Origin: an uncultured Lentisphaerota bacterium
GTDB taxonomy: Bacteria > Verrucomicrobiota > Kiritimatiellia > RFP12 > UBA1067
DNA length: 64,000 bases
Direction of reading: 5' to 3'
Assembly: GCA_900320225.1 (NCBI GenBank)
Contig: ONRL01000015.1
Coordinates: 24,383-88,382, forward strand
A program made the translations under genes and the position numbers. Shown here one piece after another: positions 15,209 to 48,843 of the stretch (positions are counted from its first letter, which is position 1; every line of letters starts with the position of its first letter). Under the pieces are notes generated by a model, which ran no database searches, was not told the DNA's origin, and saw only the letters and a list, made by a program, of their open reading frames with translations.

Positions 15209-15340
15209 GGGGCGGTGAGAGGAGTAGGAGTGGTGAGAGGAGTGGGATGTGAGAGAGGTGGGAGTTCCGCCCCCCCTCTGGCCCATCGCACGATTCTCAC
15301 CCCTCTCACCTCTCCCACTCCTCCCACCACAAGCCCCCAA
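15205..15340. repeat. long imperfect inverted repeat (purine-rich GGTGAGAGGAGT units, then the pyrimidine-rich complement) between uvrA and purL; terminator and/or MITE-like
   Basis: ggtgagaggagtaggagtggtgagaggagtgggatgtgagagaggtgggag ... ctcacccctctcacctctcccactcctcccacc. Confidence 0.6.
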
Positions 15341-15383
15341 ATTGTGCTATACTATTACTCTCCTGCAAGGAAAGCAAAAGACC

Positions 15384-18300
15384 ATGAAACCGATATTGAT
15401 GATGGGATCCGCGGCGTTCTCGCCGTTCCGCCTCGATGCCCTGCGCGCCGCCATGGCCGCAGCCGACTCCGCGTTCGCGGGCGCGAAGATCAACGCCCGC
15501 TGGGTGTACGCGATTGAACCCGAGGGCAAGGGCCCCGACGCCGAGACGCTCGCCCGCGCCGCGCTGCTGCTCAATGCGGATGGAGTGCAGAGTGCAGAGT
15601 GCTTAGTGCCGGGGACTGCACCCAGCACCCAGCACCAAGCACTCAGCACGTTCTACGTCACGCCGCGCAAGGGCACGATCTCGCCGTGGTCGTCGAAGGC
15701 TACCGACATCTTCCGCAACTGCGGTTTGAAGGGCATCGCACGCGTGGAGCGCGGCATCCGCTTCAACGTGTCGCCTGCAGTGCCGCCAGCGGCTCTCGGC
15801 GCGCTCTACGACCGCATGACAGAGGGCGTGTACACCGACCTCGACGACCTCTTCGACTGCCCACCGCCGAAGCCCGGCGTCACGTTCGACGTGCTCGGAC
15901 GCGGCGTGGAGGCGATCCGCGAGGCAAATGTCTCGCTTGGCCTCGCGATTAGCGAGCCCGAGATGCAGTATCTCGCCGAGAGCTTCAAGGCCGCCGGGCG
16001 CAATCCCACGGACACGGAGCTCGTGATGTTCGGACAGGTCAACTCCGAGCACTGCCGCCACAAAATCTTCGGTGCCCAGTTCATCATCGACGGGAAGAAG
16101 CAGAAGGACTCCCTCTTCGGGATGATCAAGAACACCCACAAGAAGAACGGAAAGGGCACGCTCGTCGCCTACAAGGACAACTCCTCGGTTGTGGAGGGTT
16201 TCGCCACGGAGATGTTCGCGCCGACGGCGGACCACGACTACCGCTTCAAGAAGGTGCAGCTCGACCAGCTCATGAAGGTGGAAACCCACAACCATCCCAC
16301 GGCGATTTCCCCCTATCCGGGCGCGGCCACGGGCGTGGGCGGCGAAATCCGCGACGAGGCGGCGACGGGCAGCGGTTCGCGCTCCAATGCGGGCATCTGC
16401 GGCTTCATGGTGAGCGACCTGCACATCCCCGGTTTCCCGCAGCCGTGGGAACGCGAGTACGCCGAGTTTCCGAAGCGTCTCGCCACGCCGCTCGCGATCA
16501 TGACCGAGGGGCCCATCGGCGGCGCGGCGTTCGGAAATGAATTTGGGCGTCCGCAGCTGACGGGCTTCTTCCGTACGTACGAGGGAGTGGCGGCGGGGCT
16601 TTACCGCGGCTACCATAAGCCCATCATGCTCGCAGGCGGACACGGCGTGATCATCCGCGACCAGGTGGAGAAAAAGCCGGTCAAGACCGGCGCGTACATC
16701 GTGCAGATCGGCGGGCCCGCCATGCGCATCGGCCTTGGCGGCGGCGCGGCGAGCTCGATGATGACCGGCACGAACGACGAGGCGCTCGACTTCAACAGCG
16801 TCCAGCGCGGCAACGCCGAGATGCAGCGCCGCTGCCAGGGCGTGATCAATGCCTGCGCGTCGATGGGGCGGAAGAACCCGGTCCTCTCCATCCACGACAT
16901 CGGCGCGGGCGGCCTTTCCAATGGCTGTCCCGAGCTCGTCGAGGCGACGGGCGGGAAGTTCTCGCTCCGCACGGTCCACAACGAGGAGCCCTCCATGAAC
17001 CCGATGGAGATCTGGTGCTGCGAGGCCCAGGAGCGCTACGTGCTCGCGCTGAGGCGCGACGCGCGCGCGTGGTTCGAGGAGCTGTGCGCCCGCGAGCGCT
17101 GCCCCGTGGCGTTCATCGGCGAGGCGACGGGCGACGGGCGGCTCATCCTTGAAGACGAGTACTTCCACGACCGTCCGATCGACATGGACATCCGCGTGCT
17201 GCTCGGCAAGCCGCCGCGCATGGTGCGCGACGTCACGCACGTGGCGCGCGCGCATGAACCGTTGAAGTTCGCCGGCGTCAAGCCGCAGGACGCGTTCTTC
17301 CGTCTCCTCCACCTGCCCACGATCGCCGACAAGACCTTCCTCGTGACGATCACCGACCGCAGCGTGACCGGCCTCGTCGCGCGCGACCAGATGGTGGGCC
17401 CGTACCAGCTGCCGGCGGCGGACTGCGCGGTGACGATGATGGGCTACAAGACGCTCCACGGCCAGGCCATGGCCACCGGCGAGCGCACGCCCGTGGCGCT
17501 CATCGACGCGCCGGCGTCCGGCCGCCTCGCCATCGCCGAGGCGCTCACGAACCTCGCCGCCGCCGACTGCGGCGACATCCGCAACGTGCGTCTCTCCGCG
17601 AACTGGATGGCGCCGTGCGGCGAGCCGGGCGAGGACGCGAACCTCTTCGACACCGTGAAGGCCGTGGGCCTCGATTTCTGTCCCGCGCTGGGCATCTCGA
17701 TCCCCGTGGGCAAGGACAGCTGCTCCATGCATACCACCTGGACCGACTCGAAGGGCAAGTCGCACAAGCAGGTGGCCCCGCTCTCGCTCGTCGTCTCCAG
17801 TTTCTCGCCCGTCGAGAACGTGCAGCGCACGCTCACGCCCGATCTCAAGCCGACGGCGTCGCAGCTCGTGTACGTTGATTTGAGCCAGGCGAAGTACCGC
17901 CTTGGCGGCAGCTGCCTCGCGCAGGTGTACAACCAGCTCGGCAACGAAAACGCGGATGCGGACGCGAAAACCCTGAAGGCGTTCTTCAACGCGATGCAGA
18001 AGATCGTGAAGGGCGGACTCGCACTCGCCTACCACGACCGTTCCGACGGCGGCCTCGCCGTGACGCTCGCCGAAATGGCGATCACCGGCGGCCGCGGCCT
18101 TGACGTGACCCTGCCCGACGGCGATGCGCTCGCCGTTCTCTTCTCCGAGGAGCCGGGCGCGGTGCTGCAGGTGGCGGACGACAAGCTGAAGGACGTGCTG
18201 GCCATCTTCCGCCGTGCGCGCCTCGGCGACTGCGTGCACGTGATCGGCGCGCCCACGGCCGATCGCGCCTTTACGGTCCATGTCGGGTGCCGTCGCGTTC

Positions 18301-26744: not shown

Positions 26745-27950
26745 ATGCAGACCGTCACAAACCAGATCAAGCAGTCAATGGCGGGATCCAGCTGGATCCG
26801 CAAGATGTTCGAGAAGGGCCTTGAACTGAAGAAACGCTACGGCGCGGACGCCGTGTGCGACTTCTCGCTCGGCAACCCCGACGTGCCGCCGCCCGCGAAG
26901 ACGAAGGAAGTCCTGGAGGGCCTCGCCGCGAAGGCGATCGAGCCGCTCGGCCTCGGCTACTGTCCCAACGCCGGCATCCCCGCCGTGCGCGAGGCGATCG
27001 CCGCCTATCTCTCGAACCAGCAGCAAACCGACGTGAAGCCCGGCAACGTGGTGATGACCGTCGGCGCCGCCGGCGCGCTCGTGGCGTTCTTCCGCGCCGT
27101 GATCGAGCCGGGCGACGAGGTGCTGTGCCCCGCGCCGTACTTCGTGGAGTACGGCAGCTACTGCGGACACTTCGGCGGCGTCCTGAAGGCGGTGGACTCG
27201 AAGCCCGACGAGGGCTTTCTGCCCGACTTCGACGCGATGGAGAAGGCCATCGGCCCGAAGACGCGCGCGATTCTCGTCAATTCCCCGAACAACCCGACGG
27301 GCTGCATCTACGCGGCCGAGGACATGGCGCGCCTCGCGGCGATCGTTGACCGCGTAAACGCGGCGCGCGAAGCGGAAGGGGGGCGTCCGCTCTTCCTCCT
27401 CAGCGACGAACCCTACCGCGCGTTCGCCTACGACGGCGCGACGGTGCCGGCCGTCCTGCCGCTCACGCCCTACGCCGTCGTGCTCGGCTCGTTCTCGAAG
27501 ACGCTCTCCCTCGCGGGCGAGCGCATCGGCTACCTGGCGATCGGGTCCGCGATGCCGGACGGCGACACGCTCATCAACGCCGTCACGCTCACGAACCGCA
27601 CGCTCGGGTTCGTGAACGCGCCGGTGCTCGGTCAGCGTCTTGCGGCCGCGCTCCTTGACCAGACCGTCGACCTCGAGATCTACGACCGCCGCCGCAAGTT
27701 GATGGCGAAGGTGCTGTCCGACGCGGGCGTCGACTTCGTGATGCCGAAGGGCGCGTTCTACTTCTTCCCGAAGGCGCCGGGCGGCGACGACCTCGCGTTC
27801 GTGGACGCCTTGCAAGACGAGCGTATCCTCGTGGTGCCCGGACGCGGCTTCGGCATGGCCGGCCACGTGCGCCTTTCGTGCAGCGTGGACGAGGCGATCA
27901 TCGCGCGCAGCGCGGAGGGTTTCAAGCGCGCCGTCGCGAGGTGCCGATGA
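26745..27950 (+). CDS. PLP-dependent aminotransferase, class I/II (AspC/AlaT-like)
   Basis: ~400 aa, NPDVPPP...SPNNPTGCIY...SFSKTLSLAGERIGY (Lys in SFSK as PLP site). Confidence 0.8.
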   Translation: MQTVTNQIKQSMAGSSWIRKMFEKGLELKKRYGADAVCDFSLGNPDVPPPAKTKEVLEGLAAKAIEPLGLGYCPNAGIPAVREAIAAYLSNQQQTDVKPGNVVMTVGAAGALVAFFRAVIEPGDEVLCPAPYFVEYGSYCGHFGGVLKAVDSKPDEGFLPDFDAMEKAIGPKTRAILVNSPNNPTGCIYAAEDMARLAAIVDRVNAAREAEGGRPLFLLSDEPYRAFAYDGATVPAVLPLTPYAVVLGSFSKTLSLAGERIGYLAIGSAMPDGDTLINAVTLTNRTLGFVNAPVLGQRLAAALLDQTVDLEIYDRRRKLMAKVLSDAGVDFVMPKGAFYFFPKAPGGDDLAFVDALQDERILVVPGRGFGMAGHVRLSCSVDEAIIARSAEGFKRAVARCR

Positions 27951-29221
27951 AACGCGCGTTGGGAAGGGTTGCGCTTGTCGCGGCCTTGGCATGCGCCGCA
28001 GAGCCGTCGCGCGCTCCGATGGAATGGGCGAGCGTGCATCCGGAAGCCATTGCCGCGTGGAAGGCCGCAAACCACGCGCCGGACGGCGTGGCCGTGGACG
28101 TCGCAGCCCGCACCGTGCGGATTCTGGTGGAGGCGACGGGCCTTGGGCCGGCGGATACGGCGGAGTTCTTCGCCATCGGTCCGCTCTCCGACCGCGCCTA
28201 TGAATCGTTTTTCGTGACGGTTGCCTCCCCGGCGGCGATTGCCGACGCAATTGAGCGCGCGGGCGTGCCGCGCGGCGTACCGCCGGACATCGCGGGCGCG
28301 CGGCTGTGGCCGTGCGGCGAGAAGCTCACGCTCTCCGCCACGCCGGTCTCCACGAACACGCCGGGAGGGTCGCGCTCCTGCGCGACCGCCCTTTCCTTCC
28401 CCGACCTGCTCGTCGACACGGCGGAGAAGGAGGAAGGTGCGATTCTGTCCGCGCCGGTCGTCTACACGGGCGGCGCGCGCGACGCGTCGGGCGCCGTCGT
28501 GGCCGCCACGAACATCCCGTGCGCCGTATTTGCGCTCTACAGCCACACGCCGTCGCTTCTGCAGCTGAACGGACGGTTCGACCAGTCGACGGTGTACGGG
28601 CGCTTCCGCGCGAAGAAGGTGTGGCCGGCGGGTTCGCTGTTTGAGCTGGCGCTGAGGTGGGACGGCCGCACGACCGTGCTGCGCCGGGACGTGGAGCTAA
28701 CCGTTCCCGCGCTGAAGGAGAAGTTGACGGCGCTCCGCGCGGACGCCGCCGCGCACGACCTGTTCGTGCGGATGTCGTTTGGCGAGGGGGTGACCGTGGG
28801 CGAGGCGGCGGAGATCGCACAGGCGCTATCGCTCGTGGACGGCAAGGGCCTGAAGATGGACGGTCCGATGCCGGGGCAGTTCTTCTTCCGTGCCTTCCTG
28901 CCGGATTCCGCATGGCGCGCGCGCCCGGGCCGTCTCTTCCAGCCGTTCGAGGTGCATGTGGCGGCCGACGGCGCGAAGAAGTTCGTGTTCGTGGAGGAGG
29001 ACTGGTCGGGCGAGGGCCTGGATCCCGTGCTCAAGCCGAAGGAGACGCCGTTCGCGGAGTGGGCGGAACTGCCCAAGCTGATCGCGCAGACGGGCGAAAA
29101 AGGGGCGAAGATCAACGTGCTCTTCCTCTTCGCGCCGAAGGCGACGCCCGTCTCCGCGCTCACGCCCGCCGTCTCCGTCCTGGGCGATCGCATCGGCACG
29201 TTCTACGTCTTCGGCGAATAG
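27947..29221 (+). CDS. secreted hypothetical protein carrying an in-frame REP-A element
   Basis: ATGA overlap with aminotransferase stop; signal peptide MKRALGRVALVAALACAAEP. REP-A copy at 28360-28390 translates as NTPGGSRSCATALSF. Confidence 0.5.
   Translation: MKRALGRVALVAALACAAEPSRAPMEWASVHPEAIAAWKAANHAPDGVAVDVAARTVRILVEATGLGPADTAEFFAIGPLSDRAYESFFVTVASPAAIADAIERAGVPRGVPPDIAGARLWPCGEKLTLSATPVSTNTPGGSRSCATALSFPDLLVDTAEKEEGAILSAPVVYTGGARDASGAVVAATNIPCAVFALYSHTPSLLQLNGRFDQSTVYGRFRAKKVWPAGSLFELALRWDGRTTVLRRDVELTVPALKEKLTALRADAAAHDLFVRMSFGEGVTVGEAAEIAQALSLVDGKGLKMDGPMPGQFFFRAFLPDSAWRARPGRLFQPFEVHVAADGAKKFVFVEEDWSGEGLDPVLKPKETPFAEWAELPKLIAQTGEKGAKINVLFLFAPKATPVSALTPAVSVLGDRIGTFYVFGE
28360..28390 (+). 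repeat. REP-A palindromic element (CCGGGAGGGTCGCGCtcctGCGCGACCGCC) inside a coding sequence
   Basis: identical to intergenic copies at 42878, 42961 and near-identical at 42832, 44663, 46960. Confidence 0.8.
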
Positions 29222-29239: not shown

Positions 29240-29365
29240 CGACCGCCCTATCGGTCCAAAGTCCTCCCTCCTTTGTCCTCTGTCGTCTGCCCTTTGTCCT
29301 TCCCCCTTTTGAGGACAGAAGACAAAGGACGAAAGAGAAAGGCGTTAGGACTTAGGACTTTGGAC
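29240..29365. repeat. ~110-bp imperfect palindrome (hairpin arms of ~50 nt) downstream of the secreted protein gene; terminator or MITE-like element
   Basis: ggtccaaagtcctccctcctttgtcctctgtcgtctgccctttgtcc ... ggacagaagacaaaggacgaaagagaaaggcgttaggacttaggactttggacc. Confidence 0.6.
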
Positions 29366-29850: not shown

Positions 29851-30580
29851 AACTACGACAGGGCGCGTTGCCGCCAGTGCCGGAACTGTAAATAGGTCCG
29901 TTCACAACAAAGTCCAACTCTGGGAGGACGGCCCTTACTGGGCCGACACAAACATCGGCGCGGAGAAACCTGAAGATTACGGTTTCTACTTCTGGTGGGG
30001 TGACACGGTCGGTTACAAGCATGAGGGCGCTGCCTGGGTGGCGAGTGACGGTTCCTCTTTGGACTTTGAGTTCGGTGAGGGGCATACGCCAACTTGCGGC
30101 AAAAGCCTGCACACCTTGAAGAGTGAGGGGAGGGTTGTTGGAGGTGAAGAAAGAAAATCTTTGCTTGGAAAGTTATTTGGGGTTAAAGGTAGAGAAGACA
30201 GTGTATTGACCACGAAGCATGACGCGGCGCAGGTACATTGGGGCGGGGAATGGCGCATGCCGACGAATCAGGAACTGAAAGACCTCTGCAACAAGTGCGA
30301 CTGGACCTGGACGACAATGAACGGCGTGAATGGGTATGTTGTCCGCGGTAGAGGCAATTATGCTTCCGTCAGCATCTTCCTTCCCTGTGCCGGTTTCGGC
30401 CACGGGGCGTCGCTCGGCCATGCCGGTTCGACTGGCGCCTACTGGGCGTCCGTTCCGCACTCGGACTACAACGACTTCGAGGCGTGGGATCTCGGCTTCA
30501 ATTCGGGCAGACACGCCGTGAGCTACTACTACCGTTACTTCGGGCAGTCTGTTCGCCCCGTCCAAGGGTTCGCCAAATAG
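29750..30580 (+). CDS. DUF1566 (Lcl C-terminal-like) domain protein; alternative start ATG 29840; possibly the detached C-terminal part of the former kinase gene
   Basis: GGEWRMPTNQELKDL and YWASVPHSD motifs typical of DUF1566; local GC clearly lower than surroundings. Confidence 0.5.
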   Translation: MAGLAKNLEDRPPTCTAVLGDEHHPQRETAMQIETTTGRVAASAGTVNRSVHNKVQLWEDGPYWADTNIGAEKPEDYGFYFWWGDTVGYKHEGAAWVASDGSSLDFEFGEGHTPTCGKSLHTLKSEGRVVGGEERKSLLGKLFGVKGREDSVLTTKHDAAQVHWGGEWRMPTNQELKDLCNKCDWTWTTMNGVNGYVVRGRGNYASVSIFLPCAGFGHGASLGHAGSTGAYWASVPHSDYNDFEAWDLGFNSGRHAVSYYYRYFGQSVRPVQGFAK

Positions 30581-40844: not shown

Positions 40845-41602
40845 CGGAAATAATCTGGTTCATAATAATCTGGGGCATCATACACTGGATTCGGTCTGTC
40901 CTCGAACAGCGGCGGATAGAACAAGGGCAGGCGGCAAGGCGCGTGCAGTCCGAATACGTCAAGGGGCGGATACTTGAATGCTTCAGCAGGATGCTGGCGT
41001 TCGTCTCAAAGGCAGACGGAAGGATCAGCAAGTGCGAGGTTGACGTTGCCAGCCAATGCCTCAAGTCCCTTGGCATTTCGGAAACGGAGTATCGGCGATG
41101 CGTGGAGGCCTTCAACGGCATGCGCGATTTCTCGCTGGAGGCATTCCGCAGGTGCGCGGCGGATCTGGTCGCGATCACGACAAATGAAGTCTGTACGTTG
41201 ATTTATGAAATGCTCTGGATTGTGGCGGCGGCCGACGGTACGCTTGACGCACGCGAAGACGACCTGCTGCGTAACGCGACCGGGCCGCTGGGAATAGACG
41301 GGGGCTTCTACTACCATTTCAAGCGCAGGTATTTCGGATTCGGCGGCGCAGGCGGCTCGGGTGGCGCAGGCGGAGGATGTCAGCACGATTCAGAGCTCGA
41401 AAAGGCATACGCAAGATTGGGATGCTCGGCGTCCGACTCCAACGACGCAGTGAAAGCCGCCTTCCGCAAGGCGGCGATGCGGTATCACCCCGACCGTCTC
41501 AGGGCAGAGGGACTGCCGGAAGGCATGGTCGCGCAGGCAACGCGGTCAATGGCGGAAATCAACGCCGCCTGGGATGTCGTCAGGAAGGCGCGCGGCCTCT
41601 AA
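40841..41602 (+). CDS. djlA: co-chaperone DjlA-like: N-terminal TM helix, TerB-like domain, C-terminal J domain
   Basis: J-domain with HPD (AFRKAAMRYHPDRL); GTGA overlap with gspK-like stop; Gly-rich linker. Confidence 0.65.
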   Translation: MTEIIWFIIIWGIIHWIRSVLEQRRIEQGQAARRVQSEYVKGRILECFSRMLAFVSKADGRISKCEVDVASQCLKSLGISETEYRRCVEAFNGMRDFSLEAFRRCAADLVAITTNEVCTLIYEMLWIVAAADGTLDAREDDLLRNATGPLGIDGGFYYHFKRRYFGFGGAGGSGGAGGGCQHDSELEKAYARLGCSASDSNDAVKAAFRKAAMRYHPDRLRAEGLPEGMVAQATRSMAEINAAWDVVRKARGL

Positions 41603-41793
41603 CCCCCTCGGCGCCGAGCGTCGCGCCCACTATTGCTTTCATGTCAAGTATCCTACCAAACCCGCCCCTGGGCGTGCAGGAGGTTGAAATCCACTGCGTA
41701 TGAGCCAAGGACCGCTTGCACTTTCACTATAAATAGTGTGTCATGCCGCAAACGGTTCCAAGGCAGAACCTGCAAACGCATAAGGAGGACAAC

Positions 41794-41859
41794 ATGAAAA
41801 TTCTGATAACGGTCGTAACTCTCGCACTTTTGCTGTCCGGGTGCGTCTCCATCGGCTAG
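41794..41859 (+). CDS. putative 21-aa small lipoprotein/peptide (MKILITVVTLALLLSGCVSIG)
   Basis: AAGGAGG RBS 6 nt upstream of ATG; lipobox LLSGC; too short for the ORF track. Confidence 0.3.
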   Translation: MKILITVVTLALLLSGCVSIG

Positions 41860-41992
41860 TCCGATCTACGAGCCCAAAGCGGGTGGCCCCCCTCGGGGAA
41901 GCGGCACTCTTGCCGCTTCTCCTGGTAGTTATACACCCGCGTAGCCGCGTGGGGAGGTACCAAGTCATGGAACAATCCAAAGGAGGAAACGA

Positions 41993-42820
41993 ATGGCAGA
42001 CCTTTTTGAAGTGAATGGCGCGAAATGCGTCTCATGCGGCGCATGCGTGCGCGACTGCGCCTTCCGTGCGCTCAAAATGGAGGATGGCGCGCCGCGCATG
42101 GCCTTCCCGGACCGGTGCATGAAATGCCAGCACTGCCTCGCGGTGTGCCCCATGGGCGCCGTCACGTTCGACGGGAAGCGTCCGGAGGACTCCGTGCCGG
42201 TCTACGGCTTGCCACTGCCGAGCCTCGAGTCTGTCGAGAACTGGCTCCGCACCCGCCGCTCCATGCGGTATTTCGCCGACGAGGACGTCGAGCGCGCCAC
42301 GCTTTCGCGCATCCTCTCCGCGCTCGGCAACGCGCCCACCGGCTGCAACGCGCGCGCGCTCACGTTCACGTGCTTCCCCACGCGCGCGTCGATGGATGGC
42401 TTCCGCCGCGATTTCATCTCCGTAATCGAACGCCACCGCAACGGCGCGAAGCTCCTGCCGCGCTGGCTGGCCGTGCCCGCGATCCGCCTGCGCAACGGAG
42501 AGGACGACATGTTCTTCCGCGAGGCAAGCGGGATGCTCGTCGTTTCATCCGACGATACCGCGCCCGGCGTGGCCACGCCGCTCGAGGACGTCACGATCGC
42601 GTGCGCGCAATTCGAGATGCTGGCCAATGCGGCGGGCATCGCCACATGCTGGTGCGGCTTCCTCAAGATGGTGCAGCAGGAAATCCCCGAACTGCTGGAG
42701 CAGACGATCGGCCTTCGCCGCACGGCGCCATTCTACGCGATGCTCTTCGGCCGCCCCGCCGTGCGCTACGCGCGCGGCGTCCAGCGCGATTCCTACGCCC
42801 GCATCGACTTCCGCGGATGA
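41993..42820 (+). CDS. 4Fe-4S ferredoxin domain fused to nitroreductase-family domain
   Basis: CVSCGACVRDC...CMKCQHCLAVCP dicluster motifs; nitroreductase fold C-terminal part; AAAGGAGG RBS. Confidence 0.7.
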   Translation: MADLFEVNGAKCVSCGACVRDCAFRALKMEDGAPRMAFPDRCMKCQHCLAVCPMGAVTFDGKRPEDSVPVYGLPLPSLESVENWLRTRRSMRYFADEDVERATLSRILSALGNAPTGCNARALTFTCFPTRASMDGFRRDFISVIERHRNGAKLLPRWLAVPAIRLRNGEDDMFFREASGMLVVSSDDTAPGVATPLEDVTIACAQFEMLANAAGIATCWCGFLKMVQQEIPELLEQTIGLRRTAPFYAMLFGRPAVRYARGVQRDSYARIDFRG

Positions 42821-42829
42821 CTAACTGGC

Positions 42830-43016
42830 TCCCCCGGGAGGGTCGCAGTTTACTGCGACCGCCAACTGGGACCGCCACCCCGGGAGGGTCGCGCTCCTGC
42901 GCGACCGCTCGGCGTTCCATCGCCGTCAGCGGCTCGGCGAGACGCCTCGCCCCACCGCTCCCCGGGAGGGTCGCGCTCCTGCGCGACCGCATGGGATCGC
43001 CGCCATCTTGGCGGCG
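42830..43016. repeat. BIME-like cluster: three REP-A copies (42832, 42878, 42961), a GGCGAGacgCCTCGCC palindrome and palindrome E (GCCGCCATCTTGGCGGCG)
   Basis: direct reading; same units recur at 44625-44790 and 46900-47170. Confidence 0.85.
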
Positions 43017-43113
43017 CCCCGCATTGAATCTTCATCACACACCATCTTCTATCCTTGCAACTACGCCAAAAAACTGCTAAAATATAAGATGTTGAAGCCC
43101 ACAAAAGTATCTC

Positions 43114-43416
43114 ATGAGACCGAAAAAGACAATCCTGCTGCCCAAGGCGGCCAAATCCCTTCAGATTCTGGGACAGAACCTGAAGTTCGCCCGCATCCGC
43201 AGGCGCATCTCCGCCGCCATGATGTGTGAGCGTGCGGGCATCAGCCATGCGACCTTGACTGCCATTGAGCAAGGCAAGCCTTCCGTGTCAATGGCGGGTT
43301 ACATGTCAGTCCTCTTCTGCCTTAACATGCACGCGGACATTGAGAAGGTCGCCTCGGACGATGTCCTGGGACGCGAACTGCAGGACCTGCAGCTCCCAAA
43401 GAGGGTCCATTCATGA
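43114..43416 (+). CDS. hipB: HTH XRE-family antitoxin (HipB-like)
   Basis: helix-turn-helix SAAMMCERAGISHATLTAIEQGK; ATGA overlap with hipA-like start. Confidence 0.7.
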   Translation: MRPKKTILLPKAAKSLQILGQNLKFARIRRRISAAMMCERAGISHATLTAIEQGKPSVSMAGYMSVLFCLNMHADIEKVASDDVLGRELQDLQLPKRVHS

Positions 43417-44612
43417 AGCGCGTCGAGGTCCATATCGCCGAAGGCGAGACAAACCGTCGCCTTGGAGCGCTCGAATACGACGAACTTCGCGGCAAGGAGA
43501 TATCGTCGTTTGAACTCGACGGCGACTACATCCTCCATCCGTCCGTGCCGTTTCTCGGTCCGGACATCGGACTGTTCCGCGGCAAGCAGTATCCAACGCT
43601 TTCCTACGGATTTGGAATCTTTCAGGACGCAGCGCCTGATTCGTGGGGACGCAAGATCATCCGCCGCCGCGAGAAACGCGGCAATCTCCGCGAGAGCGAT
43701 TATCTCCTCGGCGTATTCGATCTGACGCGCCTCGGCGCACTTCGTTTCCGGCTTGATGGCGCCGAGGACTTCGTGAACGCGGACGGCGAGAATCCCGCGC
43801 CGCCCTGGACGACGCTGCGAACGCTTGAAGACTCATCCCGTCGGTTCGAGGAGGATGATTCCGACGAAGCGGCGCTTGCCGTCCTGCTCCGCCCGGGCAC
43901 GTCGCTCGGCGGCGCACGGCCGAAGGCGAGCGTGACGGCACCGGACGACAGCCTTTGGATCGCCAAGTTCCCTTCGAAGGAAGACGACTTCGATACGGGC
44001 GCATGGGAATACCTTGTCCATGTTCTTGCCGAGGACGCCGGGCTGCGCGTTCCGGAGGCGAAGGCGCAGAAATTCTCCAAGACCGGCACGACGTTCCTCT
44101 GCCGCCGGTTTGACCGCGACGGCGCGCGGCGCATTCCCTTCGCTTCGGCGATGGCGATGCTCGGCTGTGAAGACAGGCAGGAGGAAGGAAACGGCACGTA
44201 CCTTGACATCGCGGGCTTCCTCATGCAGCATGGCGCGAAGCCGGACGCGGACCTGCCGGAACTCTGGCGGCGCATCGTGTTCTCGCTTCTCGTCTCAAAC
44301 ACGGACGACCATCTGCGCAACCACGGTTTCGTCGCCGAACACGGCAGGTGGCGCCTTTCGCCCGCCTATGACCTCAACGCGAACGCGAAGCGTCCGCAGG
44401 CACTTTCCCTTGAACTGGACGCCGGCGTGCCGATAGAGTCTGTCGACACGCTTCTCGATGCCGCCGAATACTTTCGGTTGAGCAAGACGGAAGCGAACGC
44501 CCAGCTCTCCCGCATCCGCACAGCGGTTGCGAAATGGCGTACGATCGCCGTCCATCTCGGCATCCCTCGTCGCGAGCAGGAGGAGATGTCCGCCTGTTTC
44601 GCAAAATCCTAA
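43413..44612 (+). CDS. hipA: HipA-family Ser/Thr kinase toxin (type II TA)
   Basis: HipA_C motifs FLCRRFDR and VSNTDDHLRNHGF; ~400 aa. Confidence 0.75.
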   Translation: MKRVEVHIAEGETNRRLGALEYDELRGKEISSFELDGDYILHPSVPFLGPDIGLFRGKQYPTLSYGFGIFQDAAPDSWGRKIIRRREKRGNLRESDYLLGVFDLTRLGALRFRLDGAEDFVNADGENPAPPWTTLRTLEDSSRRFEEDDSDEAALAVLLRPGTSLGGARPKASVTAPDDSLWIAKFPSKEDDFDTGAWEYLVHVLAEDAGLRVPEAKAQKFSKTGTTFLCRRFDRDGARRIPFASAMAMLGCEDRQEEGNGTYLDIAGFLMQHGAKPDADLPELWRRIVFSLLVSNTDDHLRNHGFVAEHGRWRLSPAYDLNANAKRPQALSLELDAGVPIESVDTLLDAAEYFRLSKTEANAQLSRIRTAVAKWRTIAVHLGIPRREQEEMSACFAKS

Positions 44613-44624
44613 TTCCCCCGCGCG

Positions 44625-44790
44625 CGGTGGGGCGAGGCGTCCCGCCGAGCCGCCCACCATCACCCCGGGAGGGTCGCGCTCCGTCGCGACCACATGGATC
44701 GCCGCCATCTTGGCGGCGCACCCACCCACCCACCACCCCCCAAAAAACCAACTAACTCACCAACCAACCAACTAACCAACAAATTTCGCG
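44625..44790. repeat. BIME-like cluster (GGCGAGGCGTC palindrome, REP-A, palindrome E) followed by CCCA/CCAA microsatellite
   Basis: ccccgggagggtcgcgctccgtcgcgaccac; gccgccatcttggcggcg; cccacccacccaccacc...ccaaccaaccaactaaccaac. Confidence 0.85.
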
Positions 44791-45058
44791 CTTGTGCGGC
44801 CGAGAATGGTATGATAAACTATCGGCGCTTTCGGGAATTGATGCCCCCGGTGGGGCTATACAGCGAAAGCCGTCCGGACGGGACCCATGTCTGGAGTGCA
44901 TGGGATCCTCTTGGGCCGGGTAGCGAGATCCTCCGCTGAAAAACGCGGACGCCACTTCGGTGGATGGCTGGCAGGGCCGATTCCAAACTGCAGCGGCGGC
45001 GTGTGCCGTCGGTGATGTGCAGGAATACATCCCGCATCGCGGGAGAAAGGAATCGGTT

Positions 45059-46855
45059 ATGAAGTTCAAAGTCTTCATATCAAGCGTGCAGGACGAGTTT
45101 GCGGCCGAGCGTCGCAAGCTCAAGGATTGGCTGGGAAGCGATCCATTCATTTCGCGGTTCGTCGAGAGCGTCTTCTTGTTCGAGGATGTTCCTGCGAAGG
45201 GGCGCTCGCCGGTTGACGTGTATCTTGACGAGGTAAAGGGTTCGGATATCTACATCGGTCTCATCGGCGCGCAATATTACGGAAGGAACAGCGTGAAGCT
45301 GGGTGTGTCAGCTACCGAACGCGAATACGCCGCCGCCGTCTCCGCCGGAGTTGAATGCTGGGTTTATCTTTCCAATGTAGAGAAGCGGGACAAGAAGGCG
45401 GAGGCGCTTGTCAAGAAGGTCGGCTCCGCCGCCACGTGGGCAAAGTATGAAGGATTCCCCGAACTCCGCGACGCGGTCTTTTCAAGTTTCGTCGACTTCC
45501 TCGACAAGCGTCATTTGCTCGTCGTAAGCGACTTCGACATCATGGCCTGTCCGCAGGCCCGGATGGAGGACATCTCGACGGAACGCGTGAGCTGGTATCT
45601 GGAGATGCTGCACAGGCACGGCAAAAAATCGTTGCCGCTGGATGCGTCTCCGCAGAAGCTCTTGAAGCATCTCGGCATGTTGAAGGGCAAGTACCTGACC
45701 AACGCCGGAGTCCTGTTGTTTGGGACTAAGCCGCAGGACTTCTACTACCAGACCACGTTGAAGTGCGCGTGGGTCGAAGGAACGGTCTATACGCGCCCTT
45801 TCCTCGACACGGCAAAGTTCGAAGGCGACCTGTTCGCGCTTCTGGAACAGGGCAGAAACTTCGTGATGTCCCGGATCGCGCACAGTCGCGGACTCCGTAC
45901 GGACGGCCCCATCGCGCCGTCGCTTCCCGAAATCCCGGAGGAGGCCGTTGAGGAGGCAATCGTCAATGCGCTCATCCACCGCAACTGGCATTCAAGCGCG
46001 TCGGTTGAGATTCGCCTATTCGCAGATCGGCTTGAGGTGTGGAGTCCCGGACACCTCCCGCCAGATATCACAATCCCCGAACTCTACAAGGAACACGATT
46101 CCCATCCAGTCAACAAGGAGATCCTCAAGGCATTCGACAAGATCAACGTCATTGAGTCTCTGGGCACCGGCATCGAACGCATGATCGCGGCGTGCCATGC
46201 GTCGGGCTTGCCCACGCCGGTCTTCGAATACCATGGCTCTGCTTTTGTTGTGACGATCCTCAAAGACGCATGGACGCGCACCGCGTTGGAATCACTCGAC
46301 CTCAATCCCGACCAGATAAAGGCGGTCTCGTATGTGAAGGTGAACGGCTGGATTTCCTCATCGCGCTATGCCGAGCTGTACAAGGTTCCGATGCGGACGT
46401 CGAGCCGGGAACTTGGCGAACTGGCGCATAAGGGCGTGTTCGTTCTTGTGGGCAAGGGACGGCAGTCCCGGTACGAGCTGAAATCGAATCGCGCCAGAAT
46501 CGCGCCAATCGCGCCAATGCCTGAACAAGGCTCAAAACCCCAGAAAAACAAGGGGAAATTAACGGCCGATCGTAGTTTGTCACCACAAACTAGTAAAGAA
46601 AGCACCCAAGAAATCGCCCAAGAAACCGCCCAAGAAAACCTGTCGGTGGAGGAATCCAGAATTGTAGCTTACATTAAGGCGAATGCAGCGATTACGCGCA
46701 AGTTGCTATCAGAAAAGCTTGGTATAAGTTCTGACAGTGTTAAACGCCGTCTTGAAGCACTCAAGGCGAAGTTGGGCCTCCATCACGAAGGCCCAACCAA
46801 AAAGGGCCGCTGGGTGTTTGGTACTGAGTCCAAAGGAAAGCGGGGTGCCAAATGA
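45059..46855 (+). CDS. DUF4062 + AlbA_2/Schlafen-like + HATPase_c_4 (RecG-C-terminal-like) + wHTH domain protein, putative defence/regulatory ATP-binding protein
   Basis: MKFKVFISSVQDEFAAERRKLKDWL (DUF4062 N-terminus). LIHRNWHSSASVEIRLFADRLEVWSPGHLP...ESLGTGIERMIAACHASGLPTPVFE (HATPase_c_4 motif). Pro/Gln-rich tail with QEIAQETAQEN repeat. Confidence 0.6.
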   Translation: MKFKVFISSVQDEFAAERRKLKDWLGSDPFISRFVESVFLFEDVPAKGRSPVDVYLDEVKGSDIYIGLIGAQYYGRNSVKLGVSATEREYAAAVSAGVECWVYLSNVEKRDKKAEALVKKVGSAATWAKYEGFPELRDAVFSSFVDFLDKRHLLVVSDFDIMACPQARMEDISTERVSWYLEMLHRHGKKSLPLDASPQKLLKHLGMLKGKYLTNAGVLLFGTKPQDFYYQTTLKCAWVEGTVYTRPFLDTAKFEGDLFALLEQGRNFVMSRIAHSRGLRTDGPIAPSLPEIPEEAVEEAIVNALIHRNWHSSASVEIRLFADRLEVWSPGHLPPDITIPELYKEHDSHPVNKEILKAFDKINVIESLGTGIERMIAACHASGLPTPVFEYHGSAFVVTILKDAWTRTALESLDLNPDQIKAVSYVKVNGWISSSRYAELYKVPMRTSSRELGELAHKGVFVLVGKGRQSRYELKSNRARIAPIAPMPEQGSKPQKNKGKLTADRSLSPQTSKESTQEIAQETAQENLSVEESRIVAYIKANAAITRKLLSEKLGISSDSVKRRLEALKAKLGLHHEGPTKKGRWVFGTESKGKRGAK

Positions 46856-46899
46856 AGCTCCGGCGGTTCACATCTGCCGGCGTGGAGATGGCTCGGCGA

Positions 46900-47170
46900 T
46901 CTACGCGGAGGGGCGAGGCGTCTCGCCGAGCTGCCCGGTAGGGCGGTCGCCCCGCGACCGCCGCCCGGGAGGGCCGCGCTTGTCGCGGTCTTTCGGGGAA
47001 GCGGCACTCATGCCGCTTCACTTGGTCAGGCCCGCTCGCCGAGCGGGCCGCCGCCTAACTGGGAAAGCCGCCATCTTGGCGGCGCACCCACCAACCAACC
47101 AACTAACCAACCACCCACTAACCAACCAACCAACCAACAAACCAACAAACCAACCAACCAACTACTCGCT
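46900..47170. repeat. largest BIME-like cluster (six palindromic units incl. REP-A, REP-B, palindrome E) followed by ~80-nt CCAACC microsatellite; marks the core/defence-island boundary
   Basis: ggcgaggcgtctcgcc; ggcggtcgccccgcgaccgcc; cccgggagggccgcgcttgtcgcggtc; gaagcggcactcatgccgcttc; ggcccgctcgccgagcgggcc; gccgccatcttggcggcg; (ccaacc)n. Confidence 0.85.
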
Positions 47171-47422
47171 TCCCCGCGTGCCGCCGATTTGGTATACTTA
47201 TTTCGCCTCGTTCGGAAGGGTGGGGTAAGATAGCCCAGTGACGAGACCCGCCGCCGGGAGGGCCGACAGGATCGGCCAGCGAATTGCAAACCTTGTCTCT
47301 TGAGAATTTGGACCTTCGATACGCTGACACGTGGCTTGCAAGACGATACCCTTTTAACTTGGGGTGTCGCCTTGCCAGGTAGTTTAGCGGGCTGTCCAAG
47401 GCCTTCAAGAGTGCGTGGCATA

Positions 47423-47466
47423 GGCGCGCCCCTCTAACCAGAACAGAGAGGCGCGCCTTTCTGTTC
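47423..47466 (+). terminator. Rho-independent terminator-like hairpin (GGCGCGCCcCTCT-loop-AGAGaGGCGCGCC + TTTCTGTT); orphan, not associated with an annotated gene
   Basis: GC-rich 13-bp stem followed by T-tract, 570 nt downstream of the nearest + strand CDS and just before GC content drops. Confidence 0.4.
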
Positions 47467-47481
47467 GCAAACGAGAGACGG

Positions 47482-48843
47482 ATGAGCGAGCGGAGGAAAT
47501 GCGATGTTCGACATGACTCCTTGCCATGTGGCAAGGGGCAGGATGTCGTATGCCCTACGCATGTTGCTACTGCTGCCAGGTGTGATAAAAAGCGGATAAG
47601 GTTCATTGACCTCTTTGCGGGATGTGGTGGTTTGTCGGAAGGGTTTATTCAAGCTGGATATACGCCAGTCGCTCATGTGGAAATGAATGAGGCTGCCTGC
47701 TTCACGCTCAAGACCCGGATGGCCTATCATTGGCTGAAGAAGAACGGCAAGCTTGCCGACTATTGCGCTTACTTGAGAGGTGAAATTTCACGGGATGAGT
47801 TCTACAAAAAGATTCCTTCGCAAATTCTTGATTCGGTTATCAACGAAGAGGTTGGCGAAAAGACATTGGAGTCTCTGTTCGAAAAGATTGATGCGGCAAA
47901 GGGGGAGGAGACAATTGATCTGATCGTGGGCGGTCCGCCGTGTCAGGCCTATTCGCTGGTCGGACGGGCGAGGAAGTCTATGGAGGGGAATCCTCGCAAT
48001 TACCTCTTTCGGTATTACATTGAGTTCCTTAAGCACTACAAGCCGAAATGCTTTGTGTTTGAAAATGTCGTTGGTCTTCTATCCGCAGCAGACAAAGACG
48101 GCAACAAGTATCTTGATATGATGATTGACGGCTTCAAGGATGCAGGATACACCACTTCCTACGAGACCATCAATACGAAAACGCTTGGCATCCCACAGGC
48201 GCGTAAGAGGGTCATCATCATCGGCGTTCGCGGGAAGAAGAAGTTCAAGTACCCTAAGATGCGCGGCAGGCCATTCAAGTACACGGTCAATGAGATGTTG
48301 GATGGCTTGCCGGCGTTGCCCGCTGGCGGTATAGCGGAACCTTTTGACATCAAGGTGTCCGGTGATACTAAGGCGGCATTAAAGGCAACAGGTGTTCTGG
48401 ATGAAGCTATTCCGGTGACGCAGCATCAGGTTCGTCCGAACAATGCGAATGATTTGGAAATTTACAAGCGGGTTGTTGAGCTCTGGAACAAGGAGCATAA
48501 GCGACTGAGCTATGACACCTTGCCGGCAAGATTGCAAACCCATACAAACCGCAAGACTTTCAAGGATCGGTTTAAGGTCGTGGCGAGTGATGAGAAGGTC
48601 TGTCACACGGTTGTTGCACACATTCACAAGGACGGTCATTACTATATCCATCCTGACATCGAACAGAATCGTTCGATTTCGGTTCGCGAGGCCGCACGCT
48701 TGCAGACCTTTCCGGACAACTATTATTTCGAGAGCAGTTCGAAACGTCCCGGACGCGCCGCACCCTATCGTCAGATCGGCAACGCCGTTCCGGTGATGTT
48801 TGCGAAGAAGATTGCGGAAGCAATGAGAGGCTTGTTGAAGTGA
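47482..48843 (+). CDS. dcm: DNA (cytosine-5)-methyltransferase
   Basis: motif I FIDLFAGCGG, motif IV GGPPCQAYS, motif VI FVFENVVGL, motif X RQIGNAVPV. Confidence 0.9.
   Translation: MSERRKCDVRHDSLPCGKGQDVVCPTHVATAARCDKKRIRFIDLFAGCGGLSEGFIQAGYTPVAHVEMNEAACFTLKTRMAYHWLKKNGKLADYCAYLRGEISRDEFYKKIPSQILDSVINEEVGEKTLESLFEKIDAAKGEETIDLIVGGPPCQAYSLVGRARKSMEGNPRNYLFRYYIEFLKHYKPKCFVFENVVGLLSAADKDGNKYLDMMIDGFKDAGYTTSYETINTKTLGIPQARKRVIIIGVRGKKKFKYPKMRGRPFKYTVNEMLDGLPALPAGGIAEPFDIKVSGDTKAALKATGVLDEAIPVTQHQVRPNNANDLEIYKRVVELWNKEHKRLSYDTLPARLQTHTNRKTFKDRFKVVASDEKVCHTVVAHIHKDGHYYIHPDIEQNRSISVREAARLQTFPDNYYFESSSKRPGRAAPYRQIGNAVPVMFAKKIAEAMRGLLK

What the first reader, a model, noticed from the sequence alone, without database searches (positions are those of the whole stretch)
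42830..47290. BIME-like palindrome clusters plus CCAACC microsatellites delimit two small cassettes (hipBA; DUF4062/AlbA_2 protein) at the edge of a defence island
Three composite repeat blocks (42830-43016, 44625-44790, 46900-47170) share the same ordered units (GGCGAG..CTCGCC palindrome, REP-A, palindrome E GCCGCCATCTTGGCGGCG). The last two end in CCCA/CCAA microsatellites, whose complement (GGTTGG)n could form G-quadruplexes. The blocks bracket a hipB-hipA TA module and a DUF4062 ATPase gene as direct-repeat-flanked cassettes. The third block abuts the lower-GC island. This looks like a recombination hotspot where accessory genes are swapped in and out.
Basis: seen in the sequence. Interest (0 to 1): 0.7.

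Follow-up and report, generated by a model that had tools for sequence, protein, structure and literature searches.

The report
REP hairpin clusters between defence cassettes
The three repeat blocks are real clusters of a known kind of bacterial repeat (GTAG-tagged REP hairpins), each ending in a long G-free CCAA-rich tail, and they sit at the joints of a mosaic array of toxin-antitoxin and defence gene modules in an uncultured rumen Kiritimatiellae bacterium; this is a new lineage-specific variant of known biology.

Summary
Observation confirmed. Blocks at 42826-43016, 44623-44787 and 46904-47167 share ordered units far beyond chance. They are arrays of 3-7 short GC-rich hairpins, nearly all in one orientation, often carrying the GGTAG/GGGAG 5' tag of GTAG-type REP elements. 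Blocks 2 and 3 end in G-free tails of 69 and 83 nt, followed by an extended -10 promoter.

The host is an uncultured rumen Kiritimatiellae. Related contigs support the cassette idea. The DUF4062 module, the hipBA module and an HNH module recur with different neighbours. Homology breaks at the tail/promoter junction. A ~330-nt unit (gene remnant, REP cluster, tail) follows unrelated genes.

Not supported:
- No tail-length difference among near-identical strains.
- G-quadruplex potential is marginal.
- The REPs do not alternate in orientation as BIME REPs do.
- The blocks are not attC-like, and no integrase was seen.

Best reading: REP clusters plus rut-like C-rich tracts insulate transcription between self-promoted modules and provide portable homology for recombination. 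The function is inferred, not shown.

Side findings: a conserved ~270-nt structured RNA-like element (47197-47466) upstream of restriction-modification operons, and an in-frame REP insertion in a coding gene.

Novelty: new variant of a known kind. Interest about 0.4.

The parts
41895..41919 (+). Solitary REP-B hairpin (GGGGAAGCGGCACTCTTGCCGCTTC) upstream of the nitroreductase module
   Evidence: It matches REP-B in block 3 and in L008, L153, L157 and L149.
41993..42820 (+). Fer4-nitroreductase gene. It behaves as a module: homology to the closest species (L008) starts at 41960 and stops at 42828.
   Evidence: (Pfam). None of the flanking window genes was found in L008-L013 or in most of L014-L023. 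L014, L018 and L019 have only distant (26-40% aa) dcm, HATPase or GmrSD-type matches downstream.
42826..43016 (+). Block 1. Units in order: REP-A variant (42832-42862), REP-A (42878-42908), small hairpin (42910-42927), P1 inverted (42932-42953), REP-A (42960-42990), E hairpin (42998-43016).
   Evidence: RNA fold gives independent hairpins, z = -6.5.
43017..43083 (+). G-poor tract (2 G in 40 nt; G-free at 43027-43056) followed by the hipBA promoter TTGCAA-17-TAAAAT (43055-43083)
43114..44612 (+). hipB-like HTH antitoxin (43114-43416) and HipA_C kinase toxin (43413-44612), with a 4-nt overlap. The module homologous in other genomes spans 43072-44590.
   Evidence: It recurs in three other genomic contexts.
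44623..44718 (+). Block 2 REP cluster: P1 (44629-44650), REP-A (44663-44693), E (44700-44718)
44719..44787 (+). G-free C/A-rich tail (69 nt: A29 C34 G0 T6), predicted unstructured and rut-like
44807..45058 (+). Extended -10 promoter (TGG-TATGAT, 44807-44815) and the ~240-nt 5' leader of the DUF4062 module. The left homology breakpoint of the module lies at 44771-44779 ('ACCAAC|TTCGCGCTTGTGC').
   Evidence: Read directly from the sequence. The leader fold is unremarkable, z = -1.6.
45059..46855 (+). DUF4062 + HATPase_c_4 + wHTH protein gene (598 aa), defence-like. It recurs at 88-92% nt identity in L153, L156 and L157 with different neighbours.
46853..46897 (+). 5' remnant (first 15 codons, MKLRRFTSAGVEMAR) of a gene that is full length in L153 10197-10832. 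It is cut off where the REP cluster begins.
   Evidence: The same truncation point occurs in L008 17694 and L153 4198.
46904..47084 (+). Block 3 REP cluster: P1 (46910-46931), GGTAG-tagged REP-D (46937-46962), REP-F (46963-46989), REP-B (46995-47019), REP-C (47023-47049), E (47066-47084)
   Evidence: RNA fold z = -4.8. Window 46836-47161 is 90% identical to L008 17678-18002.
47085..47167 (+). G-free C/A-rich tail (83 nt: A39 C40 G0 T4), unstructured and rut-like
47190..47466 (+). Extended -10 promoter (TGG-TATACT, 47190-47198) and a conserved ~270-nt structured RNA-like element. It ends in the hairpin GGCGCGCC...GGCGCGCC plus TTTCTGTT (47423-47465).
   Evidence: No Rfam match.
47479..47482 (.). 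Boundary of the low-GC defence island. Homology with strain L004 and with L153 stops at 47479. The dcm ORF starts at 47482.

Best explanation
The blocks are clusters of a lineage-specific family of GTAG-tagged repetitive extragenic palindromes (REPs). The host is an uncultured rumen Kiritimatiellae bacterium.

Each junction between accessory modules has three parts in order:
- a unidirectional array of 3-7 stable GC-rich hairpins;
- often a 39-164-nt G-free, C/A-rich, unstructured tract;
- the extended -10 promoter of the next module.

Proposed function at the RNA level (inferred): the hairpins protect the 3' end of the upstream transcript. The G-free tract acts as a Rho-loading (rut-like) site. 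Each self-promoted module (hipBA; the DUF4062 gene; the leader plus restriction-modification operon) is thereby insulated from read-through.

Proposed function at the DNA level (shuffling shown by comparison, mechanism inferred): the repeated blocks are portable homology. Modules are joined, lost and exchanged at them by homologous recombination. This produces a mosaic, co-oriented array of toxin-antitoxin and defence modules next to a recently acquired, REP-free, low-GC island.

The confidence of 0.5 is for the whole statement. The identity as GTAG-type REP clusters at module junctions alone is about 0.8. The combined insulator plus recombination-substrate mechanism is about 0.45.
For: REP identity:
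- Of 45 hairpins in junction blocks of the window and close relatives, 26 carry a G[TG]AGG/GTAG tag on the 5' side and none on the other side. Seventeen carry a strict GTAG.
- Unit hits number 80 in + orientation against 10 in - over 308 kb.
- The sequences resemble published GTAG REPs (PMC2817692 Table 1; PMC3733652).
- The blocks fold as independent local hairpins with z = -6.5, -2.6 and -4.8.

Insulator reading:
- The tails have 0 G in 69 and 83 nt and are 48-49% C.
- No intrinsic terminator was found in 41500-47700, against 7.3 expected.
- On the + strand only three 78-nt windows have C >= 30 and G <= 6. All lie just 3' of + strand genes, and two of them are the tails. On the - strand one of three such windows lies at the 3' end of a - strand gene.
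- In E. coli, Rho-dependent transcripts end in stable hairpins without a U tract, with rut sites immediately downstream, and REPs are enriched there (PMC6061677).
- REP325 is both a partly Rho-dependent terminator and an mRNA stabiliser (bioRxiv 10.64898/2026.03.23.713779).

Mosaicism:
- The DUF4062 module (44771/9-46590) recurs in L153, L156 and L157 with other neighbours. The left breakpoint is at the end of the tail.
- The HNH_2 module follows AbiE in L008 but a DUF3800 gene in L144. AbiE is followed by Nmad3-HNH-dcm in L064.
- The gene remnant, REP cluster and tail (about 330 nt, 90% identical) follow unrelated genes in the window and in L008.
- The unit composition of orthologous junctions differs.
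- The low-GC island carries no REPs.
Against: - No transcript or Rho data exist, and the presence of rho in this genome was not checked.
- The strict one-way orientation could reflect replication-strand bias of a RAYT-type transposase rather than RNA function, because all local genes are also co-oriented.
- Genome-wide copy number is unknown and no RAYT gene was seen.
- The hipBA module moves between contexts in more distant species without these blocks, so the blocks are not necessary for mobility.
- Homologies between the three window blocks are short (27-88 nt at 83-96%), which makes them poor substrates for RecA.
- Near-identical strains show no cassette gain or loss inside 42.4-47.5 kb.
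Confidence: 0.5

Rival explanations
1. Passive selfish repeats. The REPs are mobilised by a RAYT-type transposase or spread by gene conversion. They pile up in dispensable intergenic DNA between horizontally acquired modules. They neither insulate transcription nor promote cassette exchange. The tails are slippage-generated junk.
For: - The units have GTAG-type tags and a single orientation.
- REPs also sit at other intergenic sites (8296, 41895) and even inside ORFs: 28360 is an in-frame insertion, and 11662, 13078 and 14147 also lie in ORFs.
- hipBA moves without them in other species.
- Tail length varies widely between loci, 39-164 nt as scored.
Against: - C-rich, G-poor tracts of this kind lie specifically at 3' ends of genes on the sense strand, including in core regions.
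- The cluster, tail and promoter keep a constant order.
- Tails are identical in length in independent assemblies of the same species.
- Homology breakpoints coincide with block edges.
Confidence: 0.3
2. An integron-like site-specific cassette system. The blocks are attC-like recombination sites, and the array is a cluster of cassettes lacking a nearby integrase (CALIN-like).
For: - The cassettes are co-oriented and hold one or two genes.
- They include toxin-antitoxin and defence genes.
- They are separated by related palindromic repeats, and their order differs between genomes.
Against: - The blocks are arrays of several short, perfect hairpins with a variable number of units. They are not one 57-141-nt imperfect hairpin with paired ends.
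- No partner exists for the G-free tail.
- Each module has its own promoter.
- No integrase domain appears among the called genes with precomputed Pfam in L001-L007 and L153-L166. The only transposase is an IS110 in L162.
- hipBA homology ends at its promoter and stop codon, not at a conserved core site.
Confidence: 0.04
3. The tails are regulatory microsatellites. Length changes, or G-quadruplexes formed by the (GGTTGG)n complement on the template strand, switch or tune the adjacent promoters, as in phase variation.
For: - The tails lie 20-25 nt upstream of extended -10 promoters.
- Scored tails range from 39 to 164 nt, and only an 'ACCAAC' seed remains at the L153, L156 and L157 junctions.
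- The complement of the block 2 tail contains GGG runs, with G4Hunter 1.25.
Against: - No length difference at tail 2 among the same-species assemblies that span it (L004, L005, L006), nor at tail 3 in L004.
- The complement of the block 3 tail has only GG runs, with G4Hunter 0.96 and no G3+ motif.
- The repeats are imperfect (80-83% matches), which damps slippage.
Confidence: 0.08

Closest known systems
GTAG-tagged REP elements and their clusters (BIMEs) of Proteobacteria (E. coli, Pseudomonas, Stenotrophomonas, Xanthomonas)
   Same: - 20-30-nt GC-rich palindromes with an unpaired GTAG-like 5' tag.
- Several sequence subfamilies per genome.
- Mostly downstream of ORFs.
- Clustered into mosaic blocks whose unit content varies.
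- Occasional intragenic copies.
- Association with Rho-dependent 3' ends and mRNA stabilisation in E. coli (PMC2817692, PMC3733652, PMC6061677).
   Different: - The successive REPs here point the same way, instead of alternating (BIMEs) or forming inverted doublets (REPINs).
- The clusters are capped by a long G-free (CCCA/CCAA)n tract.
- The host is a Kiritimatiellae. I found no paper in the held library mentioning REPs in this class.
- No RAYT was seen.
Neisseria intergenic mosaic elements (NIMEs, dRS3/RS repeats) and 'minimal mobile elements' (from my own knowledge, not checked in the library)
   Same: Arrays of short repeats at intergenic junctions next to variable accessory or silent cassettes. 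Exchange of gene modules by homologous recombination without a dedicated recombinase.
   Different: Unrelated sequences. The Neisseria system relies on natural transformation and conserved flanking genes. It has no G-free tails.
Sedentary chromosomal integrons and CALINs (cassette arrays with attC sites, rich in toxin-antitoxin and defence cassettes)
   Same: Co-oriented small cassettes, toxin-antitoxin and defence content, palindromic repeats between cassettes, and variable order between genomes.
   Different: The repeats are not attC-like. The cassettes carry their own promoters, and no integrase was seen.
Rho-dependent terminators with protective 3' hairpins (E. coli; PMC6061677)
   Same: Stable hairpins without a U tract, followed immediately by an unstructured C-rich, G-poor stretch of about 70-80 nt.
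   Different: The C-rich stretch here is extreme (0 G) and repetitive. Rho dependence is untested.
Rickettsia palindromic elements (RPE; from my own knowledge) and the intragenic REPs of PMC3733652
   Same: A REP unit inserted in frame in a protein-coding gene (window 28360-28390).
   Different: Much shorter (about 24-30 nt) than RPEs.

Membership tests
REP (GTAG-tagged repetitive extragenic palindromes) | Short (20-40 nt) GC-rich imperfect palindromes that form stem-loops | tested here: met
   Stems of 8-10 bp with loops of 3-5 nt. The blocks fold as independent hairpins.
REP (GTAG-tagged repetitive extragenic palindromes) | Unpaired GTAG-like tag at one end of the palindrome | tested here: met
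   Of 45 hairpins, 17 have a strict GTAG and 26 have G[TG]AGG/GTAG at the 5' side, with 0 on the 3' side. Within the window itself most tags are the variant GGGAG.
REP (GTAG-tagged repetitive extragenic palindromes) | High copy number, dispersed over the genome | tested here: inconclusive
   There are 90 unit hits in 308 kb of window plus related contigs. Units occur at unrelated loci and species. Some related contigs end at or just beyond REP blocks or the nitroreductase gene. No complete genome is available.
REP (GTAG-tagged repetitive extragenic palindromes) | Predominantly extragenic, downstream of ORFs | tested here: met
   All composite blocks lie directly 3' of + strand ORFs. Exceptions lie inside ORFs at 28360, 11662, 13078 and 14147, which is known for REPs (PMC3733652).
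REP (GTAG-tagged repetitive extragenic palindromes) | Cognate RAYT (Y1 transposase) gene flanked by the REPs | not testable with these tools
No Y1 transposase appears among the annotated genes of the fetched loci.
BIME (bacterial interspersed mosaic element) | Cluster of REPs with mosaic unit composition | tested here: met
   There are 3-7 units per block. Unit content differs between the three blocks and between orthologous junctions.
BIME (bacterial interspersed mosaic element) | Regularly spaced REPs in alternating orientation (PMC2817692) | tested here: not met
   All tagged hairpins are in the same orientation (26 against 0; 80 against 10). Within the three window blocks only P1 of block 1 is inverted; P1 is also inverted in blocks of L008 and L157.
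Integron attC site / cassette array | Single 57-141-nt imperfect hairpin whose two ends pair (R''-L''/L'-R') with a GTTRRRY core at the cassette boundary | tested here: not met
   The folds show only local hairpins and an unpaired tail. The boundary sequence is ACCAAC|TTCGCGC, and its complement gives GTTGGT, which does not fit GTTRRRY. No attC covariance model was available.
Integron attC site / cassette array | Integron integrase adjacent to the array; promoterless cassettes | tested here: not met
   No integrase domain appears in the called genes of the fetched loci. The hipBA module has a -35/-10 promoter-like site found by the scan. The DUF4062 module and the RNA-like element have extended -10 sites read by eye. 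A CALIN may lack the integrase, so this alone is not decisive.
Rho-dependent terminator (rut site) | [quoted passage not shown] | tested here: met
   69 nt and 83 nt with 0 G and 48-49% C. They are unpaired in the MFE and centroid folds and lie after stop codons.
Rho-dependent terminator (rut site) | Termination depends on Rho | not testable with these tools
   No transcriptome is available, and rho of this genome was not examined.
G-quadruplex-forming sequence (complement of the tails) | Four or more G runs (ideally of 3 or more G) with short loops; G4Hunter above about 1.2-1.5 (threshold from my own knowledge) | tested here: inconclusive
   Complement of the block 2 tail: G4Hunter 1.25, four G3+ motifs. 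Complement of the block 3 tail: 0.96, only GG runs. Formation in vitro was not tested.
HipBA type II toxin-antitoxin | HTH antitoxin gene immediately upstream of, and overlapping, a HipA_C kinase gene | tested here: met
   HTH_31 E = 2.4e-6 and HipA_C E = 2.4e-47, with a 4-nt overlap. The NCBIfam equivalog cut-offs were not reached.

The most novel reading that the evidence does not exclude
The junction unit, made of a unidirectional REP array, a G-free poly(CCAA/CCCA) tract and a promoter or leader, may be a dedicated portable 'connector'. With it, rumen Kiritimatiellae would assemble and reshuffle toxin-antitoxin and defence modules into co-oriented arrays without a site-specific recombinase. 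This would be a functional analogue of an integron built from REPs and Rho insulation. The associated ~270-nt structured element (47197-47466) would be a new cis-acting leader RNA that governs entry of RNA polymerase into newly acquired restriction-modification operons.
Probability: 0.12. Interest if true: 0.7.

Novelty: new variant of a known kind. Interest (0 to 1): 0.4.

Why it matters
REPs are among the oldest unexplained bacterial repeats and have been studied almost only in Proteobacteria. Here a GTAG-type REP family appears in an uncultured gut lineage of the PVC group, in an unusually legible arrangement: hairpin array, then G-free tract, then promoter. This arrangement fits the recent view of REPs as dual terminator and stabiliser elements. 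The same blocks coincide with the joints of a mosaic defence and toxin-antitoxin array. If confirmed, this would link REP biology to the modular evolution of defence islands. It would also provide compact natural insulator parts for high-GC hosts. By itself the finding remains within known categories.

Tried and rejected
- Metagenome scan with the degenerate pattern GCCGCCNTCNNGGCGGCGCACC. Only L054, L064, L102, L144 and L149 were true relatives. L091 carries inverted E units inside an apparent ORF.
- Rfam at gathering thresholds on the whole window, and at E-value thresholds on 41.5-47.6 kb and on the L004 tail. Only the two tRNAs and chance-level hits came back.
- Viral contig scans for REP-D and for the RNA-like element gave no hits, so there is no sign of phage origin.
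- attC/integron reading: rejected on structure, promoters and absence of an integrase.
- Nitroreductase as a fixed anchor for synteny: rejected. Even at 94% amino-acid identity its flanks differ on both sides, so it behaves as another module.
- The 'T' unit as a repeat: rejected. It is a truncated gene start.
- Intrinsic terminators in the blocks: none found.
- AlbA_2 domain in the DUF4062 protein: not detected by Pfam at E <= 1e-3. PADLOC gives weak similarity to pAgo- and SIR2-associated proteins over aa 156-411.
- The 5' leader of the DUF4062 gene as a structured RNA: fold z = -1.6, not pursued.

Full report

Yes. Reading 42600-47500 and the repeat finder show three composite blocks.

- The unit GGGGCGAGGCGTCTCGCCGAGC (P1) occurs three times at 3 or fewer mismatches, against 0.00 expected. 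It lies at 42932-42953 (inverted), 44629-44650 and 46910-46931.
- The hairpin GCCGCCATCTTGGCGGCG (E) is exact at 42999, 44701 and 47067.
- The start of REP-A, CCCGGGAGGGTCGC, is exact four times inside blocks 1 and 2 and has one mismatch in block 3.
- Tandem Repeats Finder reports period-4 arrays at 44719-44780 and 47086-47162.
- These arrays are part of G-free runs of 69 and 83 nt. About 1e-7 or fewer such runs are expected at this composition.

Pfam confirms the genes:

- an HTH antitoxin overlapping a HipA_C kinase (43114-44612);
- a 598-aa DUF4062 + HATPase_c_4 + wHTH protein (45059-46855). AlbA_2 itself was not detected.

Downstream lie these genes:

- a DrmMII-like cytosine methylase and a BbrUII-like restriction enzyme;
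- PDC-S31;
- a McrB-like protein and a McrC-like protein;
- a PtuA/B-like pair;
- GmrSD.

GC falls from 0.55-0.69 in the six kilobase windows spanning the finding (42-48 kb) to 0.37-0.54 beyond 48 kb.

**2. What the blocks are**

Each block folds as a row of independent 8-10-bp GC-rich hairpins, followed by an unpaired tail. The fold z-scores are -6.5, -2.6 and -4.8.

I collected 45 such hairpins from junction blocks of the window and its close relatives.

- 26 carry G[TG]AGG/GTAG immediately 5' of the stem, and none carry it on the other side. Seventeen have a strict GTAG.
- With unit patterns, 80 hits are in + orientation and 10 in - orientation over 308 kb.

This tag, the size and the sequence style match the GTAG super-family of repetitive extragenic palindromes. 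Compare GGTAGGGCGGTCGCCCCGCGACCGCC here with GTAGGGcGGGTAAGCG..CCCgCC or GGTAGCGCCGGGCCATGCCCGGCG in PMC2817692 Table 1. See also PMC3733652, which reports tagged REPs in Planctomycetes and REPs inside genes.

The blocks are therefore REP clusters. They are 'BIME-like' only loosely. BIMEs are defined by regularly spaced REPs in alternating orientation (PMC2817692), and these REPs all point the same way.

**3. Organism and comparison**

The nitroreductase gene at 41993-42820 finds uncultured rumen Kiritimatiellae MAGs. Same-species contigs from other samples are 99.6-100% identical across the region.

In related species the picture is a mosaic.

- In L008 (nitroreductase 94% amino-acid identity) neither flank of the nitroreductase is conserved. 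Downstream come NUDIX, HTH_36, AAA_14/DUF4143, a DUF1016 fragment, AbiEi/AbiEii and HNH_2 genes. They are separated by the same kind of blocks, each ending in a C/A-rich tail and a TAnnnT promoter.
- The DUF4062 module (window 44771/9-46590) recurs at 88-92% nucleotide identity in L153, L156 and L157. Its neighbours there are AAA_14/DUF4143, DUF1294, a glycoside hydrolase or a dcm gene.
- The left breakpoint of that module is the same in all four copies, at the end of the tail: 'ACCAAC|TTCGCGCTTGTGC'.
- The HNH_2 module follows AbiE in L008 but a DUF3800 gene in L144. AbiE is followed by Nmad3-HNH-dcm in L064.
- Window 46836-47161 is 90% identical to L008 17678-18002. This stretch begins with the first 15-16 codons of a gene that is intact in L153 10197-10832. 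In the window, in L008 and at a second L153 site, that gene is cut at the same point by the P1 unit.
- So a ~330-nt unit (gene remnant, REP cluster, tail) has been copied behind unrelated genes.
- The unit content of orthologous junctions differs, as expected for dynamic REP clusters.
- The hipBA module (43072-44590, from its -10 region to just before the hipA stop codon at 44610-44612) is found at 79-81% identity in three other contexts in more distant species, without these REPs. It is a self-contained mobile module, and the blocks are not required for its movement.

**4. Strain level**

L004 comes from another sample and is 99.6% identical. It has both tails at exactly the same length. Its only two gaps lie in the RNA-like element, near 47405. 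L005 and L006 agree for tail 2.

L004 loses all similarity to the window at 47479/47480, just before the dcm start. The low-GC island is therefore replaced in that strain.

The island continues for at least 7 kb beyond the window and is REP-free. The gene upstream of the McrC-like gene differs between contigs: 707 aa in the window and L166, 913 aa in L164 and L165. REPs thus mark the higher-GC modules and not the low-GC island. I infer that the higher-GC modules have been resident longer.

**5. How it probably works**

Shown:
- the architecture of hairpin array, G-free C-rich unstructured tract and promoter;
- its sense-strand polarity;
- the absence of intrinsic terminators in 41500-47700 (0 found against 7.3 expected);
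- on the + strand the only three 78-nt windows with C >= 30 and G <= 6 are the two tails and 15265-15373, all just 3' of + strand genes;
- on the - strand one of three such windows (30115-30204) lies at the 3' end of a - strand gene.

From the literature: in E. coli, Rho-dependent transcripts end at stable hairpins without U tracts. These hairpins protect against 3' exonucleases, with rut sites immediately downstream, and REPs are enriched at such ends (PMC6061677). REP325 is both a partly Rho-dependent terminator and a stabiliser (bioRxiv 10.64898/2026.03.23.713779).

Inferred: the blocks insulate each self-promoted module from upstream transcription and stabilise the upstream mRNA. As dispersed homology, they are also the places where modules are joined and exchanged.

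I put about 0.8 on 'GTAG-type REP clusters at module junctions'. I put about 0.45 on the combined mechanism of insulator plus recombination substrate.

**6. Rivals**

- *Passive accumulation of selfish REPs (0.3).* It explains the intragenic copies and the REP-free movement of hipBA. It does not explain the fixed order or the gene-end specificity of C-rich tracts.
- *Integron-like attC arrays (0.04).* This fails on structure, on the presence of promoters and on the absence of an integrase.
- *Phase-variable or G-quadruplex tails (0.08).* There is no within-species length variation. G4Hunter gives only 1.25 and 0.96, and the block 3 tail complement has only GG runs.

**7. Side findings**

- A conserved ~270-nt element (47197-47466) has its own extended -10 promoter and a terminal hairpin plus U-rich run.
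  - It occurs in full in L153, L149, L019 and L004. Its first ~100 nt recur upstream of many modules.
  - 96% of cells pair, with 6 compensatory pairs against 2.9 +/- 1.2 in shuffles and 0-3 in slid controls. Only four sequences were available.
  - It has no Rfam match.
  - It precedes dcm-type restriction operons in the window, L019 and L149, and an unknown ORF in L153.
- The REP at 28360-28390 is an in-frame insertion in a real gene. The L020 orthologue lacks exactly those 8 residues.

**8. Verdict**

This is a genuine and well-delimited feature. The elements themselves are a lineage-specific variant of a known class (REPs), and the function remains inferred. Interest is 0.4.

Noticed in passing
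window 47197-47466 (promoter 47190-47198; terminal hairpin 47423-47465): A conserved ~270-nt structured RNA-like element with its own promoter and a terminator-like end. Full copies occur in L153, L149, L019 and L004, and its 5' ~100 nt recur upstream of many modules. It lies directly upstream of dcm-type restriction-modification operons. It has no Rfam match and modest covariation (6 compensatory pairs, only 4 sequences).
   Followed up: partly
window 28360-28390, in ORF 27878-29221: A REP-A unit lies inside a real coding gene and encodes ..TPGGSRSCATA... The L020 orthologue (59% identity over 403 aa) has an 8-residue gap exactly there, so this is an in-frame REP insertion. REP-like hairpins also lie in ORFs at 11662-11717, 13078 and 14147.
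   Followed up: partly
window 46853-46897: The first 15 codons (MKLRRFTSAGVEMAR) of a gene that is full length in L153 10197-10832. Its start codon (ATG at 46853) overlaps the stop codon of the upstream gene, and it is truncated by the REP cluster. The same truncated junction occurs in L008 and at a second L153 site. The last codons (..KRGAK*) of two unrelated upstream genes are shared with it.
   Followed up: yes
window 15214-15328 and 29269-29365: Long low-complexity inverted repeats in core intergenic regions, with purine-rich GGTGAGAGGAG-type arms facing C/T-rich arms. They may be terminators of another style. The 15293-15332 arm is G-free and sits just upstream of the purL promoter-like TGCTATACT.
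   Followed up: no
window 15583-15649, inside the purL ORF: A low-complexity palindrome, (GAGTGCA)n facing (GCACCCA)n, lies within the N-terminal coding region of the FGAR amidotransferase gene. It may be another in-frame hairpin insertion.
   Followed up: no
L004 5051-5492, compared with window 47480 onward: A strain 99.6% identical up to 47479 carries unrelated, ORF-poor sequence instead of the dcm island. That sequence has no match in any fetched locus and no Rfam hit.
   Followed up: partly
L164/L165 compared with window 53-56 kb: Inside the low-GC island the gene upstream of the McrC-like gene is swapped. It is 707 aa in the window and L166, and 913 aa in L164/L165, where it is preceded by two dcm genes. 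The downstream McrC-like, PtuAB-like and GmrSD genes are kept.
   Followed up: no
window 4815-5273 and 8762-8978: In-ORF tandem repeats of 45, 48 and 108 nt at 83-99% matches. They encode Ala/Glu/Lys/Pro-rich linkers in two large ORFs.
   Followed up: no
L149 13228-13378 and 11339-11607 (minus strand): About 40 nt of the promoter-proximal part of the RNA-like element (window 47185-47225) is present twice. The copies flank a ~1.6-kb lower-GC two-gene insert, which resembles a duplication at an insertion site.
   Followed up: no
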